Positions 21,128-35,278 of a stretch of DNA of 35,889 nucleotides are shown here, piece by piece (positions within the stretch are counted from its first letter, which is position 1; every line of letters starts with the position of its first letter). Both the position numbers and the translations under genes were made by a program. Location of the stretch: positions 1 through 35,889 of the IMG/VR virus record IMGVR_UViG_3300037751_000446; one strand, 5' to 3'. The DNA comes from a virus (taxonomy: Duplodnaviria > Caudoviricetes). The notes beneath the pieces are model-generated. The model searched no databases. It was not told the origin of the DNA and worked only from the letters and a program-made list of their open reading frames with translations.

Positions 21128-21467
21128 CCCTCAGCGAAGGAGGCACCCGCCGCATCCCTACCATCTTGACCTGAGACGTAGCCGCCTGCGCCTCTTCCTG
21201 GGCCTCCTCTTTCCAGAATTCCATCGAATCCTTGATGTTGTCCCGGATTTCCTTCTTCTTCTCGCTGGTCAGGCCAGAGGTGTACGAGTAGAACTTGTTC
21301 GCCTGGGCCAGCAGCTGCCGGTAGCCGTAGAACACCGCCAGGGCGTAGCTCTCGCCCGCCCGCGCATAGAGCCGGTTCAGTTCAGCGTCCGTGAAGACCG
21401 CCTCGTCATCCCCGATCCCTATATCTCCCTGCATGTCCGCCAGTTGATCGGCGCTCAGTTCGGCCAT
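21111..21467 (-). CDS. Head-tail adaptor protein
   Basis: IGD..VFTDAEL motif; position after the capsid genes. Confidence 0.65.
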   Translation of the reverse strand: MAELSADQLADMQGDIGIGDDEAVFTDAELNRLYARAGESYALAVFYGYRQLLAQANKFYSYTSGLTSEKKKEIRDNIKDSMEFWKEEAQEEAQAATSQVKMVGMRRVPPSLRDEPHG

Positions 21468-22486
21468 CACAGCACCTCATCCATCAGGGCCAGCAGCTTC
21501 AGCGCGGCGTGGTCCCAGGTCTGGTTAGCCCGCAGCCAGGCCGCGGCCTCCAGGCCCTTCGCTTTGGCCTCTGCCGGGTGCTCGTAGCACCAGCGCATGT
21601 GAGCCGCCACCTCGTCCACGTCCGCCACCGCCCATTCTCCGTTTTTGACCGGCAGCATCGACGGCATCATCATGAAGCGTTCCACCGGGATCGCCCACTG
21701 ATCGATGCCCTCTTCCAGCCCGCCCCAGCGGGTGGCGATCACCGGCAGGCCCATCATGGCGGCCTCTCGCGGCGGCATCCCCCAGCCCTCCCCTTTCGAG
21801 GGGAAGACGAAGCAGTCCGCCTGCTCGTACACTTCCGCCATGCTCTCCACCTCGCCCAGCCAGATCGAGACCCGCCGGTCGCTCTCGCTCAGGTCCATCT
21901 CCGCAAAACGCCGTGAACTGGGCCGCGCCTTGACGATCAGGCGCACGTCTTCCCCGTTCCCGAACTCCTGGAAGAAGGCCCGCCAGGCGATGTCCTCCCC
22001 CTTCCGGCTGCCCCGGTCGCCCAGGGCCAGGAAGGTGTAGGGACGATTCCCGTTCGGCGTCCGGCCCATTAGCGGGAAATCCTCCGGTGAGGTCCCCCCC
22101 GGCACGACGTGGATGGGCTTTTCCACCCCCGCCCGCCGGAACGCTTCCGCGTTCTGCACACAGGGCACGATCAGCCGTTCCGCCAGCCGGTTCACTTCAT
22201 TCGCCCAGCCTTCCGGGATCGCCGAGCATTCGTACATGGTCAGGTTCCACTGCCGCCCCGCCAGGGGGCGCAGTTCACAGGGGGGCAGGCAGGCCACCGT
22301 CAGCCGGGACCAGTCGATACCCGCCATGCGGGTCAACCAGCCCGGCAGTTCCGCCGTATCGCGCAGGGCGGGGGTCACATCCACGCCCGCCCGGTGCAAG
22401 GCCCGCACGAAGTACAGGCCGTAACGCCCGTAGCCGTCGGCGGGGAGGAACTTGTAGTTAAGCCAGTTGATCTGCCTGCTGCCCAT
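21467..22486 (-). CDS. GT4-family (GT-B, retaining) glycosyltransferase
   Basis: DGYGRY, SRKG, ADCFVFPSKGEGWGMPPREAAMMGLPVI (EX7E). Confidence 0.9.
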   Translation of the reverse strand: MGSRQINWLNYKFLPADGYGRYGLYFVRALHRAGVDVTPALRDTAELPGWLTRMAGIDWSRLTVACLPPCELRPLAGRQWNLTMYECSAIPEGWANEVNRLAERLIVPCVQNAEAFRRAGVEKPIHVVPGGTSPEDFPLMGRTPNGNRPYTFLALGDRGSRKGEDIAWRAFFQEFGNGEDVRLIVKARPSSRRFAEMDLSESDRRVSIWLGEVESMAEVYEQADCFVFPSKGEGWGMPPREAAMMGLPVIATRWGGLEEGIDQWAIPVERFMMMPSMLPVKNGEWAVADVDEVAAHMRWCYEHPAEAKAKGLEAAAWLRANQTWDHAALKLLALMDEVL

Positions 22487-22503
22487 GTTCACCTTTTTTC
22501 AGG

Positions 22504-23637
22504 CTAAGAGACGGTCGGGTTCGCCCACGCGCCGCCCGCTACCAGGTAGCCGACTGCGCCGTTGGTCCGGTCCATCCCCACGCCGATCCCGTACTCCATC
22601 TCCACGTCAAGCTGTTTGATCGGGTACTGGTCGTTGTTGGTCGTCTCCGGCACCAGGTACATCCCGAAGCCGTTTTCAGGGTGGACCCGCGCCGCCAGGG
22701 AGTTGTCCGCCGCCAGGGACCCGTAGCTCTTGTACAGCCCGGCATAGCCGGTAGCCAGCCGTGCCGTCGCCTTGAGCCGGATCAGCCCGTAGTCGCTCTG
22801 GAAATCACCGAAGTGGCCCATTTCCCAGCGCCCCTGGGCGAAGAGTTGGTTCCCGCTTGTCTCCCCGCCCCGGTCTATTAAGACCAGGTTGGCGATGTCC
22901 ACCAGTTCCACGAACTTGGTCAGCGCCGCGTAGCTGGTGATGTCCGCCCGGCTCACTATCGCGTCATAGGGCGCGTCGTGTCCGTGCTCCTGGAGGGTCT
23001 CCGCCAGGCCGTTCAGCATCGTGGCGTGAGTTACCCCGCCTGTGCTGCTGTTGAAGCCCAGGAAGTGGTCATGCGAGCTGTCAAAGGCGTCGCCGTCCCA
23101 GGCCGGGGGCGAGTAGTCCACGTTCCCGCCTGTCCCGCGCACGAAGGGCACGTCATAGCCCGCCGATCCGATGGCCTTCTCCGTGTTGGTGAAGGCGCGG
23201 GTCAGCAGCTTCTGCTCGAAGCGCCATTCCAACTTACGCAGCGCCGCCCGGATCGAGGCGACCACCTTCGCCCGCCGCGCATCCCGGAAGTAGCGCCGGG
23301 TTCCCCCGATGCCGATCCCGTAGACGCGCAGGTCGATCATGTGGCCTAACGTGCTCCCTTTGGTCGGGTCAGGCCGGTCAAGGTCGGTGATGTCCGGGGC
23401 AGCTGTGACGGCCCCGCCGTCCTCGTATTCCATGAAGTTTTCTTCGGTCAAACTGAAGAGCCAGCCCCACTTGCGGGCCAGTTCCTCGTTCTTATCGCCC
23501 ACCGCCACCGCGACCTGGTTGATCAGTTCGCCGTAGGTCACCCCGTCGCGCAGTGCCCACTCAGCGATCCGTGTCCCGTCCACGCCGACTGGCAGGGCCT
23601 TGTCCAGCAGGATTTGAGGTCCTAGAATTTCAGGCAT
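22504..23637 (-). CDS. Major capsid protein
   Basis: 377 aa, follows scaffold and decoration genes, strong GGAG RBS, C-terminal EYGIGV pattern. Confidence 0.75.
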   Translation of the reverse strand: MPEILGPQILLDKALPVGVDGTRIAEWALRDGVTYGELINQVAVAVGDKNEELARKWGWLFSLTEENFMEYEDGGAVTAAPDITDLDRPDPTKGSTLGHMIDLRVYGIGIGGTRRYFRDARRAKVVASIRAALRKLEWRFEQKLLTRAFTNTEKAIGSAGYDVPFVRGTGGNVDYSPPAWDGDAFDSSHDHFLGFNSSTGGVTHATMLNGLAETLQEHGHDAPYDAIVSRADITSYAALTKFVELVDIANLVLIDRGGETSGNQLFAQGRWEMGHFGDFQSDYGLIRLKATARLATGYAGLYKSYGSLAADNSLAARVHPENGFGMYLVPETTNNDQYPIKQLDVEMEYGIGVGMDRTNGAVGYLVAGGAWANPTVS

Positions 23638-23665
23638 GTCTTATGTCTCCAATCTACCCGTCTCG

Positions 23666-24076
23666 CTAAGAGGTCGGGTCGTCGATGCCGGGGTTCACGA
23701 AGAACACGCCCGCGCTCTCGAAGTAACCCAGGATGAAAGCGAAGGTCCCCGCCGAGTCGCCGATGCGACCAACCGTGTCGCTCAGGTAGCCGTAGCTCCC
23801 CGGCGTCGCACCGCTGAAGCCGGAAACCGGCCCGAAGACGCAAACCGTCACCGGGTCCCCGGCGTTCACGGTGGTCTCGCCGTCGTAACTTTCCACCGCG
23901 ATCCCGATTCCCCGTGCGGCAGCCGCGCTCACGTTGCCGTCGGCGGGTTCCGCGTCGCCATCACTGGCGATGTACACCACCTGCCCGATGGTGATGGTCG
24001 CCCCGGCAGTACGTCGTCGGGTGACCGCCCCCGGCAGGATGGCGATCTGTGCAGCAGTCAGACTGATGTCTGTCAT
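23666..24076 (-). CDS. Capsid decoration/cement protein
   Basis: AGATITIGQVVY, GIAV, TPGSYGYLSDTVG pattern. Confidence 0.7.
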   Translation of the reverse strand: MTDISLTAAQIAILPGAVTRRRTAGATITIGQVVYIASDGDAEPADGNVSAAAARGIGIAVESYDGETTVNAGDPVTVCVFGPVSGFSGATPGSYGYLSDTVGRIGDSAGTFAFILGYFESAGVFFVNPGIDDPTS

Positions 24077-24106
24077 CTCATTTGCTCCTTAGTCTCCCGG
24101 TCCGGG

Positions 24107-25429
24107 CTAGATGCCCAGCAGCCGACGGGCTTCCCGCCGCGCTTCCGGGGAATCGTCAATCTCGCGGGCCTGGCGTTTCTGCCCCCCGCCTACGATGGCG
24201 CTCGGCCCTGCCTTGTGGCTCACGATGGCCTGGGCGAGCGTCTTGTATTCCTCGCTCCCGGCGTAGGTCTCAAGCGCGGTCCGGGCCTTCTCAAGGTCCG
24301 CCTCGCCGCCAATCTCGGCCAGCACCGCCCGCCGCGCCACCGGGCGCAGGCTGTCGTGTTTGACCGTCTCCGCGATCAGCTTTTCAAGGTCGCCCTGAAA
24401 CTGCTCGCGCCGGGCCTCGCCCATGACCTGTTCCAGTTCCGCGATCTTCTTGTCTTTCTCCTGGATCTGGCCCTCGATCTCAGCGATACGTGCCGCTTCG
24501 TCGTTCTGGGACTGCCAGTCCTTGATGATGGCTTCCCGGACCGTCTTGGGGAGGTCTTTTGCATCCCCGGCGGTCAGTTCGGCCAGCACTTGTGCTTTGT
24601 CCATGATGTCCTCTTCCTGTTTAGGTTGGATCTCCATCTCGCCCGTCACCTGGAAAGCCCCTCCCAGGGAAAGGGCGGCCCGGTCCGGCGGGGCCAGGTC
24701 CAGCGTTTCAAGCTGGAAGCCTCGCAGTTGGTGGCCCCCCTTCCCGCCTGGGACTTCCTCGTCGTAAGTGCCGTATATCGAGGTGGCGAGTTTCCCGCCG
24801 CGTGCCATCAAACGGCGCACGTATTCGCGGGCCTCGCCCGGCGGCAGGTAGCCTTTAGCCCACAGGGTCTCACCCTCGCGGGCCGCCCCCACCCAGTCCA
24901 CCGACTCGATGGGAAACGCCGTGGGTCGTTCCTCTTCTTTCAGGTGGCCCATCAGGCCCCCTTTGCCCACCACCTGCTCCGCGATGGCGCTGACCAGCGT
25001 CTCGTCGTACTCCAGGCCATTTGTGCTGACCTCGCCAACACGCGCTATCGGGAGAACCACGAAGAACGGATCCTCGTCACCCCGTGTCAGCACCTGGATG
25101 TCTACCTGGTGATGGGTTGCCACCGCCGGAAAGCTCCCCCGGAACTCGCCAACGGTGTAGCCTCGTGCGTGCATTTCCCGCACGTAGCTCAGTTTGACTG
25201 GCTCCCAGTCTGTCGGGGCGGCAAATGTGATGCCCTCGTCTGTCGAGGCCATCGCCACCCGGAAATGCTGATCGCCGTCGCGGGCGATCACATGCGTCTC
25301 AAACACATCGCTGACCCATGGCTCCCACGAGTCCGCGCTGAATGCCTCTCTGAAAGCGGTCCGCACTGACTCCAGCCATTGCTCCACCGAGCCGTCGATC
25401 TCCGCCGTCACTTGCTTTGTCTTTCCCAT
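24107..25429 (-). CDS. Prohead protease / scaffold fusion
   Basis: GLMGH..W..TSIYG..LETLDL protease-like core, then a coiled-coil scaffold tail. Confidence 0.65.
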   Translation of the reverse strand: MGKTKQVTAEIDGSVEQWLESVRTAFREAFSADSWEPWVSDVFETHVIARDGDQHFRVAMASTDEGITFAAPTDWEPVKLSYVREMHARGYTVGEFRGSFPAVATHHQVDIQVLTRGDEDPFFVVLPIARVGEVSTNGLEYDETLVSAIAEQVVGKGGLMGHLKEEERPTAFPIESVDWVGAAREGETLWAKGYLPPGEAREYVRRLMARGGKLATSIYGTYDEEVPGGKGGHQLRGFQLETLDLAPPDRAALSLGGAFQVTGEMEIQPKQEEDIMDKAQVLAELTAGDAKDLPKTVREAIIKDWQSQNDEAARIAEIEGQIQEKDKKIAELEQVMGEARREQFQGDLEKLIAETVKHDSLRPVARRAVLAEIGGEADLEKARTALETYAGSEEYKTLAQAIVSHKAGPSAIVGGGQKRQAREIDDSPEARREARRLLGI

Positions 25430-26296
25430 TTATGCCTCCACCCCCGCCACCGCCATCCGGTGGCCCTCGCACCATGCCTCAAGCGAATAACCCGCCGTCG
25501 CCTCACGCAGCGCTTCCGGGTCCGCCTGGCTTAACAGGGCCGTCTGCACTGCGCCCTCAAGCGACCAGAAGTCCCCTTTCCCATACCGCCAGATGCCGGG
25601 GATATCCGGAAGTTCGTCCAGCATCCCCACCCCGCACGGGATCACCACCTGCACCCCGCAGGCCAGTGCCTCAAGGGGTCCCGCTGGCCCGCCTTCGATC
25701 AGCGACGTGCAGACGTACACGTCCAGCCCCCGGTAAAAGTCGGGCATCTCCTCGTAGGGGAGGCGGCTTTCCGCCACCCCCCAGCCTGCTCCCGCCGCCA
25801 CGAAACTGTGTTTTTCAAAGAGGGCGTCCTGGGCGATCTGTTGGAAGAGCGTTTCACCCTTGCGTCCGCCCCGGTAAACCAGTCCGCTGGTCCCGATCAC
25901 CTGCCCTGCCCCCTGCCTTTTCCCCACCGGGGTAAAGTGCTCCCGGTCAATACCCAGCCGCACCTTCGCTGCCGGGCCGTGTCGTTCCAGTTTCTCAAGC
26001 GTCTGGTAGGCGGTGGCTATCCGCAGGCTCAACTGCGGGATGATCCCCTCCCATGCCTTCCGGTTGGGGGTGTAGTTGTAATCGTAATGAGTACACCAGG
26101 CCGCCGTGCTCAATCCCGCCATCTCCTCTTTCCAGAACAGGTAGCAGCCCAGGTAATTGAGGTCCGCCGCCGGGTCTGCCTCCGGTCCCAGCGTCCAGCC
26201 GTTCCCCTCCGCCAGCGCCCGGTTCAGGCGCGGGATGATGTGCTCGCTGTTCGGGCCTGTCTGGAAAGCCCAGGGGTTCACGATGTGGACGTGCAT
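25430..26296 (-). CDS. GT4-family glycosyltransferase
   Basis: GIDREHF, GRKG, LDVYVCTSLIEGGPAGPLEALACGV (EX7E). Confidence 0.88.
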   Translation of the reverse strand: MHVHIVNPWAFQTGPNSEHIIPRLNRALAEGNGWTLGPEADPAADLNYLGCYLFWKEEMAGLSTAAWCTHYDYNYTPNRKAWEGIIPQLSLRIATAYQTLEKLERHGPAAKVRLGIDREHFTPVGKRQGAGQVIGTSGLVYRGGRKGETLFQQIAQDALFEKHSFVAAGAGWGVAESRLPYEEMPDFYRGLDVYVCTSLIEGGPAGPLEALACGVQVVIPCGVGMLDELPDIPGIWRYGKGDFWSLEGAVQTALLSQADPEALREATAGYSLEAWCEGHRMAVAGVEA

Positions 26297-26299
26297 CAG

Positions 26300-27070
26300 C
26301 TACCCTCTCCGCAACAGGTCAATCAGTTCGGCCTTGCGTAAGCGGCCCGCCCCGATCATCCCGGCGGCTTCCACCAGTTCGCGCAGCTCGCTGACCGTCA
26401 TGCTCTCGTAGTCTGGGAGGTCGTCCGCGGACACGTCCACGGACGGCGTCTCTATCTCATCCAGTGCCGTCAGGTCCCCGTAGAACATCAGGAAGACCGT
26501 ATGCGCCCAGCGCCCGGTCGCTCCCCGCCCGGCGTAGCCCAGCGCCTTCGTCCCGTAAAGTGGGACTTCCTTCCATTCGTGGCGCTCCGGGTTCACTTTA
26601 TCCATGCGGTGGGTCGCCCCCATCTTCAGGGAGCCCCCCATCACCAGGTCGTCCAGCCAGTCGCTCCCATCATTCCACAGGGACTGCCCGGCAGGGAGTG
26701 TGATGTAGAGCGTCCCGTCATCCGCCAGCCAGCTTTTCAGCCTCTCAACTGCCGCCAGCACTTCTTTCGCGCCGTTCAGGTGGTCCAGCGTGCTGATGCA
26801 GATAATCCGCCGGTATTGGCGCTCCGGCTCGAAGGAGAACAGGTTGATGTTGTTCACGCCGGGGAGTTGTTCTCGCATGTCGATGACTTCATGACGGAAT
26901 GGACTGGGCAGGTAATGGGGCAGCACCGCCCCCACTTCGAGTGCGTCTTCCTCGTGTCCGTCCAGCAGGGCCAGGCCCACCGGCACTTCCACCGCCCGTT
27001 CGTTCAGGCGGGAGTGGTTGTAAGCCATGTCCATGTAGTCGTAGGTCCTGCCTCGTAATATAAAACTCAT
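26300..27070 (-). CDS. Class I SAM-dependent methyltransferase-like protein fused to a C-terminal Rho-N/SAP-like helical domain
   Basis: NERAVEVP, ALEVG, IICISTLDH, LADDGTLYITLP; tail MTVSELRELVEAAGM..LRKAELIDLL. Confidence 0.7.
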   Translation of the reverse strand: MSFILRGRTYDYMDMAYNHSRLNERAVEVPVGLALLDGHEEDALEVGAVLPHYLPSPFRHEVIDMREQLPGVNNINLFSFEPERQYRRIICISTLDHLNGAKEVLAAVERLKSWLADDGTLYITLPAGQSLWNDGSDWLDDLVMGGSLKMGATHRMDKVNPERHEWKEVPLYGTKALGYAGRGATGRWAHTVFLMFYGDLTALDEIETPSVDVSADDLPDYESMTVSELRELVEAAGMIGAGRLRKAELIDLLRRG

Positions 27071-28002
27071 ATCCATCGCTCCATCAGGGCTTCTATCCGC
27101 GCCCGGCTCGCCCGGAAACTGTATTCCTCTTCCACTACCCGGAATCCGCGCAGGCGCACTTCTTCATAATCTTCCGGGTGCTCCAGCAGCCGCGCTGCGA
27201 TCTCCAGCGCCCATTCGGGGCGGTAGGGATGGCACTCCGGGTGTCCGGTCACCCCGGCCCACAGGCTGCTGATGCAGGGCGTCCCTACCATGGCGCACAG
27301 CACCCCGTGCCGGTGATAGCTGTGTCGGGCATACAGGTCCACGCACAGCCGCGCCCGCGCCGTCATTTCCACGAACTCTCCAAAAGCCACCCGCCCCGTC
27401 CATTCCGCTTCCAGCCCTGCCAGCCGCGCATAGGCTTTCGTCTCCTCACGGGCGTCGGCGTAAAGCACCCGCCTTCCCGTCTCCCGCTGGATAAGCGCCA
27501 GGGCCGCCACGTTGTGGGCGCTGGCATAGGGTTCAAGCGGGTGATCCAGCGCCAGGATATAGTCCTCTTTTGCCATCTCCCGGTACGGTAGGAACCATTC
27601 ATCAGGCCCTATCGGGCTGGGCAGCCAGGCGCTCGGCTTGTTCAGCAGCGCCCCGTAGACCTCGCAGTCGTAGGGCGTCCGTCCGCCGATCAGGTCCGCC
27701 AGCGCCATTTCCTCAAACATGTGCCCCCACTCCCGGTGATAGAGCACCAGGTCAAGTGAGGGGTCCGGCATGACGATTACCTTGATTGCCGGGTTCCCCG
27801 CCTTGATGTCCCGGATAGGCCGAGTCTCCGACAGGTGGAAGAGGTTGACCATCAGGACCTGGTAGCCGCGCAGGTCCGGGACTGTCCCGTTCCAGCGCAT
27901 CGGCTCGCAGCCAAGCACTTCCGACCACAGGGCCACGCTCACGCTGTTGGTTTTTGTGTACTGTGCGCTCTGGTTCTCGCCCCACACGAAGCCGATCTTC
28001 AT
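27067..28002 (-). CDS. Divergent GT-B glycosyltransferase
   Basis: MKIGFVW start; ARARLCV..CAMVGTPCIS C-terminal Rossmann pattern; lacks EX7E. Confidence 0.7.
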   Translation of the reverse strand: MKIGFVWGENQSAQYTKTNSVSVALWSEVLGCEPMRWNGTVPDLRGYQVLMVNLFHLSETRPIRDIKAGNPAIKVIVMPDPSLDLVLYHREWGHMFEEMALADLIGGRTPYDCEVYGALLNKPSAWLPSPIGPDEWFLPYREMAKEDYILALDHPLEPYASAHNVAALALIQRETGRRVLYADAREETKAYARLAGLEAEWTGRVAFGEFVEMTARARLCVDLYARHSYHRHGVLCAMVGTPCISSLWAGVTGHPECHPYRPEWALEIAARLLEHPEDYEEVRLRGFRVVEEEYSFRASRARIEALMERWI

Positions 28003-30532: not shown

Positions 30533-31787
30533 ATAACCCTTGAGTCTTCACCCGGCGCACGGGCGATCCTTTTTTGCCTACCATTAGTTCGGTCAAAGCC
30601 CACACCAGCGCGTCCAGCCGGTTCGGGCTGTTCCGGCTATCGCCGGGGACCCAGCCTGTCATTTCCATCTCAAGGGCGCTGAACCGCCGCCCGACGTGGT
30701 GGATCAGCCCGCGCTCGTAGAGAGCCGCCACCGGTTCTGCCCGGATCGCCTTGCCCCGGCTGGCATGGATCGTCTTCAGGCTGGCGCTCTCTCCGCCCTC
30801 CACCGCCCGGATGGTGTGCTCCACCATGTCCCCGCCGAAGTTCGCCTCGGCGATGATCCGGTCCCCTTTGTGGCGTTCGTAAGCGCTCACCACTTCACTC
30901 CCCCAGGTCTGCGGGGAGCCTTGCAGCGAGGCGTCTTCCAGCACGTAGGCGTGACCGTCTTTTCCCAGTCCCGCCGCGATAATTCCGCATTCCGTCACCC
31001 CACCCGGCGGGTCCACCCCAACTACTACACGAATTAATTCAGGGTGACGGCTGGCCCGCATCTCCTCGATCAGCGCCATACTCCACAGCGCACGCGGGTC
31101 CTCGTCCAGGTCCAACGCCTCGATCTCCTGGCGGTAGGCCAGCGCCGTCATGTCCCCGGCGATCTCTTCCAGCGCTTCCGCGCTGATGTGCGGGTTTTCG
31201 TGGCTGGTGAAGTGGAAGGCTTCCCAGCGCCCACTCTTGTCCCCCGCCGCCCGTTTGAAGAGCTTTGCCGCGTGGCGAGGGTCCCTGGCCTGGGTCCGGC
31301 TCTTGCTGTTCAGGGTAGGGGGGGTGTAGATGAACACTGCGTCCCCATCGTTGTCCAGCAGCATCGGCGCGCCGACCTGCCCCCAGGCGTCCTCGTTCAT
31401 CAGTTGAAACTCGTCCAAGATCAGCGTGTCGGCGTAATCCCCGCGCAGCGTGTTGGCGTCCCAGGCCGTCTTGGCCCGGATGCGCTGTTCGCTGCCCGGC
31501 AGTTCGATGATGTGTCGCGTCTCGTTTTTGTAGAGCACCTTCGCCGCAATCGCCTCTCTCAGCGCCCGTTTGCACTCCTCCCAGAAGCGGTCGATCTGCT
31601 CCTGGGTGGGGGCCGCATAGAGCACCCGCCGTCCCTTCAGAAACTCCTCCACCGCCAGGATCGCCATGCCGGTGGTCTTCCCCCCGCGCCGCCCGGCCCG
31701 CACCACTTTGCGCTTGGCCCGGCTGTCAAGGAAGGCCCGCTGCTTGTTGTGCGGGTCCTTCAGATACACACTCAGTGTCGTGGTCAT
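30507..31787 (-). CDS. terL: Terminase large subunit
   Basis: Walker A AGRRGGKT, Walker B LILDE, nuclease VGVDP and PNRLDA; ATGA overlap with terS. Confidence 0.95.
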   Translation of the reverse strand: MTTTLSVYLKDPHNKQRAFLDSRAKRKVVRAGRRGGKTTGMAILAVEEFLKGRRVLYAAPTQEQIDRFWEECKRALREAIAAKVLYKNETRHIIELPGSEQRIRAKTAWDANTLRGDYADTLILDEFQLMNEDAWGQVGAPMLLDNDGDAVFIYTPPTLNSKSRTQARDPRHAAKLFKRAAGDKSGRWEAFHFTSHENPHISAEALEEIAGDMTALAYRQEIEALDLDEDPRALWSMALIEEMRASRHPELIRVVVGVDPPGGVTECGIIAAGLGKDGHAYVLEDASLQGSPQTWGSEVVSAYERHKGDRIIAEANFGGDMVEHTIRAVEGGESASLKTIHASRGKAIRAEPVAALYERGLIHHVGRRFSALEMEMTGWVPGDSRNSPNRLDALVWALTELMVGKKGSPVRRVKTQGLYGSRDKYR

Positions 31788-32266: not shown

Positions 32267-32997
32267 CCCGCCAGCCCTTGCCTCGTCATCCAGCCCGCCA
32301 CCCACAGCGCCGCAAAGGGCAGCCAGGGCAGCCCCGCCATCAGCGGGATCGGGGCGCTGCCACTTCCATAAGGCGAACACAGGATGCTGGCCGTCATCGC
32401 CAGCGCCATCCGCCCCCGCTTCAGGGCGTAAAATCCCAGTGCCAGCCCGATTGCCAGTCCCCAGGGCCACCACCACGCCTCGTCCGGCGCGCCGCTCAAC
32501 TGCTGCGGCAGACCGTAGAGGGCCAGGGTCAGCGCCGCCAGCGCCAGGAGAGGCCCCACCGTGATCAGGAGTTTTCCCCTGCGCTGTGCCTGCTGGACGA
32601 TAATCCCCATCACCCAGACCGTCGATTGTGGCTTGGCGGAGAGCACGATCAGCGCCAGCGGCCCCGGCAGCAGGACGCCAAGCCACAACAGCGGTTCGAG
32701 GTTGCCCATTGCCAGTGTGAAGAGCACCGGCCAGCTCAGGAGGATCAGCGCCAGCCGCGCCGGGGGGATCCGCATCCGCCGTCCCCCTGCGATCAGCGCC
32801 CCGATGCTCACCAGCCGGAAGGCCGTCGGCATCCCTGGCCAGTCCCGCGCCAGGTAGAAGGGCAGCGCCAGCAGCAGTGCCCAGGCCGGGTTGTGAAAGC
32901 CCAGCGTCGGGTGAATCGGCGTCTGCCGGTAGGGGTTCAGCCCCGCCAGCAGCCAGTCAATCGCCGCCTCATATACCGCCCAGTCAACCATGCCCAT
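32263..32997 (-). CDS. GT87/DUF2029-like integral membrane (GT-C) glycosyltransferase
   Basis: GLNPY, FHNPAWALLL.LPF, GNLE, KPQ motifs; many TM segments; ATGA-coupled to terS. Confidence 0.72.
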   Translation of the reverse strand: MGMVDWAVYEAAIDWLLAGLNPYRQTPIHPTLGFHNPAWALLLALPFYLARDWPGMPTAFRLVSIGALIAGGRRMRIPPARLALILLSWPVLFTLAMGNLEPLLWLGVLLPGPLALIVLSAKPQSTVWVMGIIVQQAQRRGKLLITVGPLLALAALTLALYGLPQQLSGAPDEAWWWPWGLAIGLALGFYALKRGRMALAMTASILCSPYGSGSAPIPLMAGLPWLPFAALWVAGWMTRQGLAG

Positions 32998-33109
32998 CCC
33001 GTCGCAGGGGCGGACCCGTGTATCCGCCCGCATTCAGAGGGTGCTTTCGCTCCCGGTCGCTTTTCGCCCCATCTCGTCTATGTGTGTGGGCAGCTATGAC
33101 CGGACAGCA

Positions 33110-33143
33110 AAATGCCTCTGTCTACAGTGTGACAGAGGCATTT
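33110..33143. promoter_or_regulatory. Perfect 13-bp inverted repeat upstream of the late operon
   Basis: aaatgcctctgtc-N8-gacagaggcattt; abuts a minus-strand TTGACA (33148..33143). Confidence 0.6.
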
Positions 33144-33185
33144 GTCAAGATGTTGCACAGGATGTTACAACTACACGAAATAAGG

Positions 33186-33218
33186 GCGGGCGCTGTCCTC
33201 CGAATTGACAGCGCCCGC
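33186..33218 (-). terminator. Perfect 12-bp hairpin directly after the omegaRNA guide
   Basis: gcgggcgctgtc-N9-gacagcgcccgc, followed by CCTTATTT on the minus strand. Confidence 0.6.
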
Positions 33219-33220
33219 GC

Positions 33221-33360
33221 AATCAGGATAGTATAAGTGAACTCCTCGCGCACACGGGTGCAACCCTTCTGCTGGTTCTCAGGCAACGCACACTCCACTG
33301 AGCCACGTTAGCGCCTGAAGGCCCGTTCCGGGCCTCTCAAGGTTCAATTTACCGCCCTCG
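33221..33360 (-). ncRNA. TnpB omegaRNA (reRNA) scaffold plus about 16-nt guide; 5' boundary approximate
   Basis: AGGCCCG/CGGGCCT and TCAGGC..GCCTGA stems after the tnpB stop; right-end motif TCAC at 33240..33237; guide TTATACTATCCTGATT. Confidence 0.7.
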
Positions 33361-34438
33361 CCAGGATATTACGTGCTGCATTCACATCTCTGTCCAGCAA
33401 AAGGCCGCAGGCGGGACAGTCATGGACGCGCACGGAGAGGGCTTTTTCTACGATGCTCCCACACCCGCTGCACATCTGGGAGGTCCACTTCGGATCAACC
33501 CTTACGATCTCGGCCCCGGCCTCGGCGGCCTTGTAGCCGAGCAATTCCTGGAAGATGCCCAGCCCTATGTCATGAGCCACCCGCGCCAGGGTCGGGTTTC
33601 GCAGCATGAAGCTCAGGGAGAGGTCCTCCAGGGCGATCAGGCCGTAGCTGTTCGCCAGCCGTCGGCTCACCTTGTGCCAGAAATCCCTTCTCTGGTTTTC
33701 GAGCCTTTCATGCTGGCGGGCCAACAGTTGGATGGCCTTTCGCCTCCTGTGGCTCCCTTTCTTTTTTCTGGCGACCGCCCTCTGGAGCCGCCGAAATTTC
33801 CTCAGCGAAGCCTCCAGGCTGTACAGGCTGTCGATAATGGTTCCGTCGCTGAGCGCCAGCGCGTGCTTGATCCCCATGTCGATGCCCACCGCCGGGCCGG
33901 GATGAGGGGCGGGTTCAGGGTCGGGCAGTTCGAGCGACAGGCAGACATACCAGCCGGACGGCTTGCGGAGGACCCGCACGGTCTTAATCCTGGCGTCGTC
34001 AGGGAGTTCCCTGTGCCAGCGGGCCTCTATCAGGCCCACGCTCTGAATATAGAGCCGGTCTTCCCGGAGGTGAGCGCCGTTGCGATAGGTAAACTCCAGG
34101 CTGTTGAAGTTTCGGAAGGGCTTGAAGCGGGGCCGCCCGCGCTTCCCTTTCAGGAATTGGAGGTACGCGCCGTCAAGGCGGCGCAGGACCCGCTTACCGG
34201 CATGTTGATTAAGCGCCTGAAGGGGATTGATTGACGGTTCCTCGTTTCGCCACGCGCTCCACAGCTTCTCTTGCTCGTACACGCTCACCGACCGCCGCGA
34301 TTTTTGCCAGGCGTCCCGTCGATGGTGGAGGGCGCGGTTATAGAGCCACCACCCGGCCCACAAAATATCCTTGAGGCCACGTTCTTGCTCCGGTGTGGGG
34401 TAGAGTCGGTATTTGTACGTTCGCTTTATCTCACTCAT
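33344..34438 (-). CDS. tnpB: RNA-guided endonuclease TnpB
   Basis: YKYRLYPT, RuvC motifs GIDMG / ALEDL / DRDVNAARNI, zinc finger CSGC..CPAC; AAGGAGG RBS. Confidence 0.95.
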   Translation of the reverse strand: MSEIKRTYKYRLYPTPEQERGLKDILWAGWWLYNRALHHRRDAWQKSRRSVSVYEQEKLWSAWRNEEPSINPLQALNQHAGKRVLRRLDGAYLQFLKGKRGRPRFKPFRNFNSLEFTYRNGAHLREDRLYIQSVGLIEARWHRELPDDARIKTVRVLRKPSGWYVCLSLELPDPEPAPHPGPAVGIDMGIKHALALSDGTIIDSLYSLEASLRKFRRLQRAVARKKKGSHRRRKAIQLLARQHERLENQRRDFWHKVSRRLANSYGLIALEDLSLSFMLRNPTLARVAHDIGLGIFQELLGYKAAEAGAEIVRVDPKWTSQMCSGCGSIVEKALSVRVHDCPACGLLLDRDVNAARNILARAVN

Positions 34439-34471
34439 AGTCCTCCTTTTTATGAGCCTCACCGGGGACGC

Positions 34472-34502
34472 AAAAACCCGCGTCCATCGTGAGTCGCGGG
34501 TT
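34472..34502 (-). terminator. Terminator/attenuator in the tnpB leader
   Basis: AACCCGCG-N12-CGCGGGTT followed by TTT, about 35 nt before the tnpB ATG. Confidence 0.65.
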
Positions 34503-34529
34503 GGAAGGCAGTTGACGGCGCGTTATAAT
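34501..34529 (+). promoter_or_regulatory. Antisense sigma70-type promoter
   Basis: TTGGAA-N17-TATAAT. Confidence 0.65.
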
Positions 34530-34534
34530 GAGCC

Positions 34535-34612
34535 GCAGCTTCCTCCGTGGCGTTTCACGGTGGGCAGTCAGGGCCTGGGGGGTGTTGCTTGCACCTTCCA
34601 GGTCCGTTTTCT
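34535..34612 (+). ncRNA. Candidate cis-antisense sRNA to the tnpB leader
   Basis: Starts after TATAAT; hairpin ccgtg/cacgg; ends in a 14-bp stem that pairs fully only on the plus strand (G-U pairs), then GTTTTCT. Confidence 0.55.
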
Positions 34613-34626
34613 ATCGATGCCCTATT

Positions 34627-34875
34627 CTACTCCGAGTCGGGGCCGGGGTCAATAAGCTGGTCCAGCCGTCCGTATCGCTGCCACCTGGCGTCCCTGATCT
34701 CCTCCAGGTAGGCCATCTCCGCTTCCACGCGGCGATTGTCCCAGCGCGCCTGCGCCCGCTGGACCGCCTGCTCGAATTCCTCGTCCGGCGAGAGGTCATC
34801 GTCCTTTATCTCCCGGATGGTCATGAATGCGCTCGGCTTCCGCTTTCCGAAACCGCTGAGAAACTGCTTAATCAT
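34627..34875 (-). CDS. Hypothetical phage protein
   Basis: GGAGG RBS; in line with neighbouring genes. Confidence 0.6.
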   Translation of the reverse strand: MIKQFLSGFGKRKPSAFMTIREIKDDDLSPDEEFEQAVQRAQARWDNRRVEAEMAYLEEIRDARWQRYGRLDQLIDPGPDSE

Positions 34876-34900
34876 CGTGTTTTCCTCCGCCCGTCTCCGG

Positions 34901-34923
34901 GCTGATTAGCTGATTAGCTGACT
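34901..34923. repeat. Short tandem repeat gctgatta gctgatta gctgact
   Basis: Read directly; same GCTGA core as the 1247..1277 repeat. Confidence 0.6.
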
Positions 34924-35278
34924 ACCCGACCATTCGGTCCAGCGACGGCACGAAGCTAAACGCTAACTGCTCAACGCGCTTGCGGCGCACCGCCGCCCGC
35001 CAGCCGTATTTGGGGTGGGCCGCCAGCCGTTCCACCACGCCAGCCGCCTCCAGCGCCGTCAGACGGCGGTAGTAGGTGATGCGGTTGGCCCGCACCCCCG
35101 CCAGGCCCATGATAACCGACATTTTCAAATAGCCGCCGGGACGGGCCGTCAGCGCTTCCCAGATCGCCGCGTCCAACCCGTAGAGCGCCCCCGGCTCCAC
35201 GATCTCGAATTCCTCGCCGGGCCGCAGGTCTACCTGGTTGACCGCCTGGCAGCGGCGGCAGTGGAAGGTTTGGATCAT
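34922..35278 (-). CDS. Putative winged-helix DNA-binding protein with N-terminal CxxC
   Basis: YYRRLTALEAAGVVER..YGW wHTH pattern; GAGGA RBS. Confidence 0.6.
   Translation of the reverse strand: MIQTFHCRRCQAVNQVDLRPGEEFEIVEPGALYGLDAAIWEALTARPGGYLKMSVIMGLAGVRANRITYYRRLTALEAAGVVERLAAHPKYGWRAAVRRKRVEQLAFSFVPSLDRMVG

What the first reader, a model, noticed from the sequence alone, without database searches (positions are those of the whole stretch)
34440..34625. Antisense-RNA-controlled attenuator in front of tnpB
Seen: (i) a terminator in the tnpB leader (34502..34472). (ii) Upstream leader sequence CGGACCTGGAAGG can pair with CCTTCCAACCCG, which overlaps the terminator 5' arm (perfect 7-bp core, 34594..34600 with 34502..34508). 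(iii) An opposite-strand promoter TTGGAA-N17-TATAAT yields a roughly 75-nt RNA that covers this anti-terminator and ends in its own strand-specific terminator. Established: this is the logic of pT181/pIP501 antisense attenuation, and P22 sar is a phage antisense precedent. Inference: TnpB is silenced while the sRNA is present and fires on entry into a naive cell or on induction. I do not know of this control being described for tnpB.
Basis: partly seen in the sequence, partly recalled or inferred. Interest (0 to 1): 0.75.

Follow-up and report, generated by a model that had tools for sequence, protein, structure and literature searches.

The report
Antisense RNA switch before phage TnpB
A phage carries, in front of its RNA-guided TnpB nuclease gene, one copy of a conserved, uncatalogued control cassette of Chloroflexota mobile elements, in which a predicted ~78-base antisense RNA likely stops the gene's transcript early, much as plasmids such as pT181 control their replication genes.

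Summary
Both promoters, the antisense RNA fold (z -5.3) and a modest leader terminator are present. A covariance model finds the antisense RNA in 31 of 151 Anaerolineae-class genomes and in phages, with strong covariation and no Rfam match. Parts not in the model come with it: a sense terminator in 57 of 82 members (controls 8 of 82, 8 of 81) and a sense promoter in 45 of 81 (controls 6, 1). The predicted antiterminator is the hairpin at 34567-34535, which the antisense RNA also covers; across 57 members this part pairs best with its own terminator (0 of 10000 permutations), though an equilibrium test was negative. Members precede integrases, recombinases, FtsK, antirepressors and HNH nucleases; no other sits directly before tnpB. 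So this is a pT181/pIP501-like attenuator captured once by a tnpB that lacks its IS left end and appears CRISPR-like. No RNA data. The scan noted a similar Chloroflexota cassette before on other DNA.

The parts
34624..34652 (-). Sense promoter for the tnpB leader (TTGACC-17-TAGAAT), overlapping the end of an upstream 82-aa ORF; start predicted near 34618
   Evidence: 10 of 12; a sense promoter precedes 45 of 81 homologs against 6 and 1 in controls
34439..34618 (-). Predicted ~180-nt 5' leader of tnpB mRNA (attenuator)
   Evidence: family layout
34535..34612 (+). Predicted ~78-nt antisense RNA: 5' hairpin 34538-34568 and 15-bp terminator hairpin 34571-34605 with U run 34607-34610
   Evidence: covariation
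34501..34529 (+). Antisense promoter TTGGAA-17-TATAAT
   Evidence: -10 box TAnAAT at this place in nearly all of 82 members, TGn extension in 66 (these positions are part of the search model)
34535..34567 (-). Target hairpin of the leader = predicted antiterminator: 34567-34550 pairs with 34497-34478 (terminator 5' arm end, loop, 3' arm), 34546-34539 with 34511-34503
   Evidence: family test
34472..34502 (-). Attenuator terminator (8-bp stem, 12-nt loop, U5)
   Evidence: sense terminator in 57 of 82 members
34594..34600 (-).
   Evidence: P <= 0.001; rank 56 of 57
34444..34453 (-). Ribosome binding site of tnpB, unpaired in the full-length leader fold
33344..34438 (-). tnpB, 364 aa, RuvC residues D187, E271, D351 present; no tnpA and no IS left end upstream
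33237..33345 (-). omegaRNA-like scaffold ending in a 28-nt repeat-like unit (33264-33237) in place of the IS right-end hairpin; the guide would start at 33236
   Evidence: variation at 33236/33237 in runs X1 and X3

Best explanation
The stretch is one copy of a conserved antisense-RNA cassette of Chloroflexota mobile elements, and it likely acts as a transcription attenuator that keeps this phage's tnpB off while the predicted antisense RNA is present. Shown from sequence: two convergent promoters, a two-hairpin RNA on the plus strand conserved by compensatory changes, and a terminator before the gene. Predicted by folding: without antisense RNA, the leader hairpin 34567-34535 opens as the terminator's 5' arm and loop emerge and pairs with them, so polymerase reads into tnpB and its guide RNA; with antisense RNA bound (probably starting loop to loop at that hairpin) the terminator forms with probability near 1. 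Inferred: a burst of TnpB when the DNA enters a cell that has no antisense RNA, silence afterwards, and silencing of incoming copies with the same hairpin sequence. The cassette was most likely captured from another mobile element, as it normally precedes integrase, recombinase, FtsK, actin-like, antirepressor or HNH genes.
For: Family: single-sequence model finds full-length homologs; MAFFT alignment of 11 gives 94.6% paired cells, 15 of 22 pairs with two-sided changes, 0 of 500 shuffles, slid controls 39-44%; 102 model-fitted hits give 91.9%, with a basal G-U pair in 92 of 102 that exists only on the antisense strand. Features outside the model: sense terminator 57 of 82 vs 8 of 82 opposite strand and 8 of 81 downstream; sense promoter 45 of 81 vs 6 and 1. 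Switch: hairpin part pairs better with its own terminator than with others (centred -3.05 kcal/mol, 0 of 10000 permutations, n=57); on transcripts cut before the 3' arm, own -7.3 vs other members -5.2 and own shuffled -4.1 kcal/mol (0 of 10000; p 5e-6), 333 of 394 partner bases lie in the first 30 nt of the antisense RNA, window ranks 3 of 57. Window: P(terminator) 0.07 free vs 0.99 blocked at transcript end 34477, 3 of 300 shuffles as low.
Against: No RNA evidence of any kind. At equilibrium on the complete hairpin the family effect vanishes: P(terminator) 0.76 own vs 0.83 non-cognate, Wilcoxon p 0.72, only 12 of 57 below 0.5, so the switch must be kinetic. In the window the effect depends on where the transcript is cut: P 0.63-0.85 at ends 34475-34470, 21 of 300 shuffles at 34472; the cut points were chosen after seeing the fold. 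45 of 57 own leaders sequester >=30% of the arm, but so do 53% of non-cognate pairs. The window's terminator is weak (U5, z -1.14). 25 of 82 members have no terminator by my rule. Relatedness and shared GC content can inflate the own-versus-other tests; the shuffled-own control addresses only composition.
Confidence: 0.68

Rival explanations
1. Transcriptional interference: the strong convergent antisense promoter lowers tnpB transcription in cis, and the leader terminator is a constitutive dampener; RNA-RNA pairing matters little.
For: Two 10-of-12 promoters face each other 95 bp apart; equilibrium folding shows no family-wide switch; interference accompanies attenuation at icsA/RnaG (PMC2879508, passages seen).
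Against: Does not explain the conserved two-hairpin fold nor the own-versus-other pairing with the terminator.
Confidence: 0.12
2. The antisense RNA acts after transcription (duplex cleavage by RNase III or translational block), as P22 sar does (recalled), and the terminator is opened by something else.
For: In some phage members the same RNA covers the ribosome site and start codon of the next gene, an HNH nuclease in L529; 25 of 82 members lack a terminator; an antisense RNA at the 5' end of an archaeal tnpB was proposed to repress translation (10.1101/2022.08.31.505529, passages).
Against: In the window the RNA ends 82 nt before the ribosome site, which is unpaired in the full fold, and a terminator lies between.
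Confidence: 0.12
3. One reading: the 5' segment 34606-34594 is the antiterminator.
For: The 7-bp match exists; 61 of 394 partner bases in the family come from the 5' end of the leader, and that part shows a weak family signal (193 of 10000).
Against: P <= 0.001, coexists with the terminator, +9 kcal/mol when extended; window ranks 56 of 57 for this part.
Confidence: 0.04
4. The cassette is a decayed passenger or an IS left-end structure without regulatory effect on tnpB.
For: The pairing with tnpB is a singleton; the terminator is weaker than in most members (-13 vs about -20 to -30 kcal/mol).
Against: All parts are intact and score 78.8 bits (the window was in the training set); no likeness to the relatives' left ends; four independent DNA runs show the leader with at most one change.
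Confidence: 0.04

Closest known systems
pT181 RNAI/II-repC and pIP501/pAMbeta1 RNAIII-repR antisense attenuators (PMC2879508 and PMC3753616, passages seen)
   Same: Convergent promoter makes a short structured RNA over the leader; a leader hairpin holds the antiterminator and is the kissing target; binding favours a terminator before the gene. One viral member (L519) also has an Arc-like repressor gene upstream, as pIP501 has CopR (recalled).
   Different: No Rfam match to any ctRNA family; host phylum Chloroflexota; targets are tnpB here and integrase, recombinase, FtsK, antirepressor, HNH genes elsewhere, not a plasmid Rep; mechanism untested.
pCF10 prgQ countertranscript attenuation and Shigella RnaG/icsA (PMC13401043 passage and reference list; PMC2879508)
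   Same: Antisense attenuation used outside replication control.
   Different: Unrelated sequence and targets; RnaG is much longer (recalled) and induces the terminator by direct overlap.
P22 sar RNA (recalled, not read)
   Same: Phage antisense RNA of similar size from a convergent promoter; some family members here cover the ribosome site like sar and two precede P22_AR_N genes.
   Different: In this window the RNA does not cover the ribosome site; the predicted action is termination.
Antisense RNA at the 5' end of tnpB of ISH39, Halobacterium (10.1101/2022.08.31.505529, passages)
   Same: Antisense control of a tnpB has been suggested.
   Different: Proposed translational repression with SmAP1 in an archaeal IS; no attenuator, not tested.
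CRISPR-associated TnpB: Cas12r of Thermus Lalka phages (10.64898/2026.04.20.719267, passages) and TranC (PMC13565253 and 10.1101/2025.09.28.678669, passages)
   Same: Phage-borne TnpB-size nuclease with repeat-spacer units; the closest located relatives (65-66% identity) carry arrays.
   Different: The window has one repeat unit and keeps an omegaRNA-like scaffold fused to it; relationship to Cas12r or TranC clades was not tested (tree not built).

Membership tests
Countertranscript-driven transcription attenuator (pT181/pIP501 type) | Convergent promoter inside the leader giving a short RNA with its own terminator | tested here: met
   By sequence and conservation only:
Countertranscript-driven transcription attenuator (pT181/pIP501 type) | Intrinsic terminator between antisense-covered region and gene | tested here: met
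   Window (modest); 57 of 82 members vs 8 and 8 in controls
Countertranscript-driven transcription attenuator (pT181/pIP501 type) | Antiterminator sequence within the antisense-covered region, exclusive with the terminator | tested here: inconclusive
Countertranscript-driven transcription attenuator (pT181/pIP501 type) | Antisense RNA is made and raises termination | not testable with these tools
   Needs RNA data or in vitro transcription
pT181 / pIP501 ctRNA sequence families (Rfam) | Match to an Rfam model | tested here: not met
   Window 32800-35200: two chance hits at E 2.6 and 6.7; 20 member loci: none at gathering score
P22 sar-type translational antisense | Antisense RNA covers the ribosome site of the target | tested here: not met
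   RNA 34535-34612, ribosome site 34453-34444; met in other members
IS200/IS605 (IS1341-type) element | Left end with TAM and subterminal hairpin upstream of tnpB | tested here: not met
   Relatives show CCAT then a conserved left end; none in the window leader
IS200/IS605 (IS1341-type) element | Intact TnpB with 3' omegaRNA scaffold ending in TCAC | tested here: met
CRISPR-associated TnpB (TranC / Cas12r-like) | Array of two or more repeats with spacers next to tnpB | tested here: inconclusive
   One repeat unit in the window; arrays in L003, L094, L095, L096; other letters after the repeat in runs X1 and X3; no second repeat seen
CRISPR-associated TnpB (TranC / Cas12r-like) | Phylogenetic placement in a described clade; split guide RNA | not tested
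   The tree could not be run

The most novel reading that the evidence does not exclude
A phage has built a gated, reprogrammable nuclease: a TnpB that has left its transposon, takes variable CRISPR-like spacers at a repeat derived from its right end (in one population a spacer identical to the phage's own terminase gene), and is switched on only in cells that lack a cognate antisense RNA. It would then fire once on entry against competing relatives and be held off afterwards, and the ~100 hairpin-loop variants of the cassette would form a natural library of orthogonal attenuators that works as an incompatibility code among Chloroflexota mobile elements.
Probability: 0.25. Interest if true: 0.75.

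Novelty: new variant of a known kind. Interest (0 to 1): 0.52.

Why it matters
If right, it is the first attenuator-type control proposed for a TnpB in the papers searched (open-access library only), and shows how an RNA-guided nuclease leaving its transposon gains expression control by capturing a ready-made cassette. The cassette itself is a large RNA family absent from Rfam that carries pT181-like attenuation into Chloroflexota and into integrase, antirepressor and nuclease control, with natural specificity variants useful for testing antisense recognition and for synthetic regulators. The mechanism class is long known and the tnpB link is a single case, which caps the interest.

Tried and rejected
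Sequence searches for the leader found nothing: annotated phages, 401 Chloroflexota genomes by BLAST, only 18-47-nt chance matches, five genomes, 280 loci by nhmmer, best hit inside a coding region; exact patterns in viral contigs. Only the covariance model worked. Of 17 first hits I dropped L406, L411-L415 as probable false hits and L417 as a copy of L410. IS left-end reading rejected. Riboswitch or known RNA family: no Rfam hit. tracrRNA-like role of the small RNA: rejected because the family occurs without tnpB or repeats. Protein search of 401 genomes with too strict a threshold gave nothing and shows nothing; a strict pattern in 301 genomes gave 0 and is uninformative. The 'no terminator' constraint was mis-specified and is not used. 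Sequencing runs: no RNA holder listed. Runs X5 and X6 laid nothing. No related phage with this region: 80 terminase relatives lack the cassette and the neighbouring ORFs; the 118-aa ORF has no homolog and only a weak winged-helix lead. TnpB tree not obtained. Supplements of the bioRxiv papers were not visible and could list related TnpB-array loci.

Full report
Setting. The window is a whole 35,889-base virus record with terminase, portal and tail genes. tnpB lies at 34438-33344 on the minus strand, 364 aa, with all three TnpB Pfam domains and RuvC residues D187, E271, D351 invariant among 39 aligned relatives. Its relatives are 45-67% identical and come mostly from Chloroflexota, chiefly Anaerolineae, which suggests the host.

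Observation. The plus-strand RNA 34535-34612 folds into two hairpins at -42.2 kcal/mol, z -5.34; the same stretch on the other strand gives -26.9, an asymmetry reached by 8 of 1000 shuffles. The leader terminator is there (8-bp stem, 12-nt loop, U5) but unremarkable alone (z -1.14) and missed by the scan.

A different antiterminator. Folding growing transcripts shows the hairpin 34567-34535 opening once the terminator's 5' arm and loop are made: 34567-34550 pairs with 34497-34478 and 34546-34539 with 34511-34503 (z -3.22 for the transcript ending at 34483). With the transcript ending at 34477 the terminator has probability 0.07 free and 0.99 with the antisense-covered part blocked; 3 of 300 shuffles of the covered part do as well. 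At 34475-34470 it is 0.63-0.85 free, and 21 of 300 shuffles match at 34472. The support from this copy alone is therefore modest.

The family. Sequence searches found no homolog. A covariance model from the single sequence found 17 places in 15 of 151 genomes of the class of G003; I kept 10 and dropped 7. A MAFFT alignment of these 10 plus the window gave 94.6% paired cells and 15 of 22 pairs with two-sided changes, above all 500 shuffles and all slid controls. The refined model matches 31 of 151 genomes of that class, 12 of 151 of the phylum, with up to 19 copies in a genome, 1 of 141 and 0 of 141 in two other phyla, 0 of 5 single genomes, and 19 of 27 viral loci picked by a pattern. Only 27-29 candidates per genome were scored, so these are lower bounds. 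Over 102 hits in 100 sources 91.9% of cells pair (alignment fitted to the model); the basal G-U pair in 92 of 102 marks the antisense strand as the folded one. Rfam has no match.

Parts outside the model. After removing one hit with short flank and near-copies, 82 members remain. A sense-strand hairpin of -10 kcal/mol or better with a U run lies within 147 nt behind the antisense -10 box in 57 of 82, against 8 of 82 on the other strand and 8 of 81 further downstream. A sense promoter of 9 of 12 or better lies within 108 nt upstream in 45 of 81, against 6 and 1. The antisense -10 box, which is in the model, reads TAnAAT with TGn before it in 66 of 82.

Is the switch conserved? On transcripts cut before the 3' arm, cross-pairing is -7.3 kcal/mol for own, -5.2 for other members and -4.1 for own shuffled sequence; 333 of 394 partner bases lie within 30 nt of the antisense 5' end and 61 at the far end; the window ranks 3. 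Against this, at equilibrium on the finished hairpin there is no difference (0.76 vs 0.83, p 0.72; 12 of 57 under 0.5), 53% of non-cognate pairs also sequester 30% of the arm, and kinship among members was handled only by a 75% identity filter. A kinetic antiterminator, as in pT181 where the antiterminator lies in the target hairpin (PMC3753616, passages), fits both results, but that is inference.

What the cassette controls. Of 80 downstream ORFs, picked by a heuristic and not always the first, 22 have a Pfam hit, 16 of mobile-element type: serine recombinase 3, tyrosine integrase 3, FtsK 3, actin-like 2, P22 antirepressor N-terminal 2, DUF6011 2, T5orf172 1. L519 has an Arc-like repressor gene upstream and a recombinase downstream. 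In L529, L528 and L541 the RNA covers the ribosome site and start of the next gene, an HNH nuclease in L529. tnpB appears in 1 of 99 member loci, as part of a separate tnpA-tnpB element about 1 kb away; a TnpB C-terminal motif is absent from L401-L541. Conversely the model finds 0 of 119 tnpB loci tested, of 171 fetched. The tnpB link is a single capture.

The tnpB context. Related IS copies start with CCAT and a conserved left end; the window has neither. At the 3' end the IS right-end hairpin is replaced by a 28-nt unit like the repeats of the arrays behind the four closest located relatives, L003 and L094-L096, with spacers of 34-36 nt. Contigs of four soil and sediment runs match the window almost letter for letter, the leader with at most one change, but differ right after the repeat: X3 has 9 more letters; in X1 the repeat is followed by 26 letters identical to the phage's own terminase gene at 31513-31538, and the far flank carries at least 67 further letters. 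This reads as a variable mini-array or, less likely, a deletion junction; contigs are short and of depth about 4, and no second repeat was seen. The bases 5' of the matched site are not CCAT, so self-cutting is not implied.

Literature. Searches for tnpB with antisense RNA and attenuation (3 papers, listing only), with IS605 (11 listed), 'tnpB expression' with antisense (none), Chloroflexi RNA motifs (2 listed; PMC2864571 passages) and countertranscript attenuation found no description of this RNA family or of attenuation at tnpB. The nearest is a proposed antisense RNA at the 5' end of an archaeal tnpB (passages). Known attenuators are pT181, pIP501, pAMbeta1, RnaG (passages) and pCF10 (passage). 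The library is open-access only. P22 sar, CopR and P4 CI/P1 C4 details are recalled. Earlier notes of this scan describe a Chloroflexota cassette of repressor, ~90-nt antisense RNA and terminator and similar attenuators before phage antirepressor and rep genes; a sequence look-up did not link them, so identity with this family is likely but not shown.

Verdict. Real, conserved, works most likely like a pT181/pIP501 attenuator (0.68), is not a member of those sequence families, and gates tnpB in this one phage. New variant of a known kind; interest 0.52.

Noticed in passing
window 33237-33264 and 33236/33237 junction; runs X1, X3: Repeat-like unit at the end of the TnpB guide scaffold; the letters after it differ between populations of the same phage, and in X1 they equal the phage's own terminase gene at 31513-31538.
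   Followed up: partly
L003 2258-2409, L094 2250-2435, L095 1562-1715, L096 2642-2733: The closest TnpB relatives carry CRISPR-like arrays whose 28-nt repeat continues the omegaRNA scaffold; spacers 34-36 nt; L095/L096 still have an IS left end.
   Followed up: partly
L081, L095, L131, L082, L127, L023, L026, L056, about 125 nt before tnpB: A second, unrelated structured leader family in solo-tnpB elements: a 14-bp covarying stem (9 of 19 pairs with two-sided changes) with an alternative pairing next to the start codon, laid out like P4 CI / P1 C4 leaders (recalled); no Rfam hit. Chloroflexota tnpB seems to capture regulatory leaders repeatedly.
   Followed up: partly
L529 1798-1897, L528 1798-1899, L541 1798-1890: Phage members in which the antisense RNA covers the ribosome site and start codon and its promoter lies in the coding sequence; L529 controls an HNH nuclease.
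   Followed up: partly
G134 (19 matches), G020 (12), G512 (8): Genomes with many divergent copies of the cassette.
   Followed up: no
window 33110-33143 and 33186-33218; 33205-33234: Two perfect hairpins (13 and 12 bp) downstream of the guide, and a plus-strand promoter-like site pointing into the guide scaffold.
   Followed up: no
window 21467-28002: Cluster of glycosyltransferase and methyltransferase-like genes among the head genes, suggesting virion or DNA glycosylation.
   Followed up: no
L082 / L112 just after the element's right end: An inverted partial copy of the right end lies about 110 nt downstream of TCAC.
   Followed up: no
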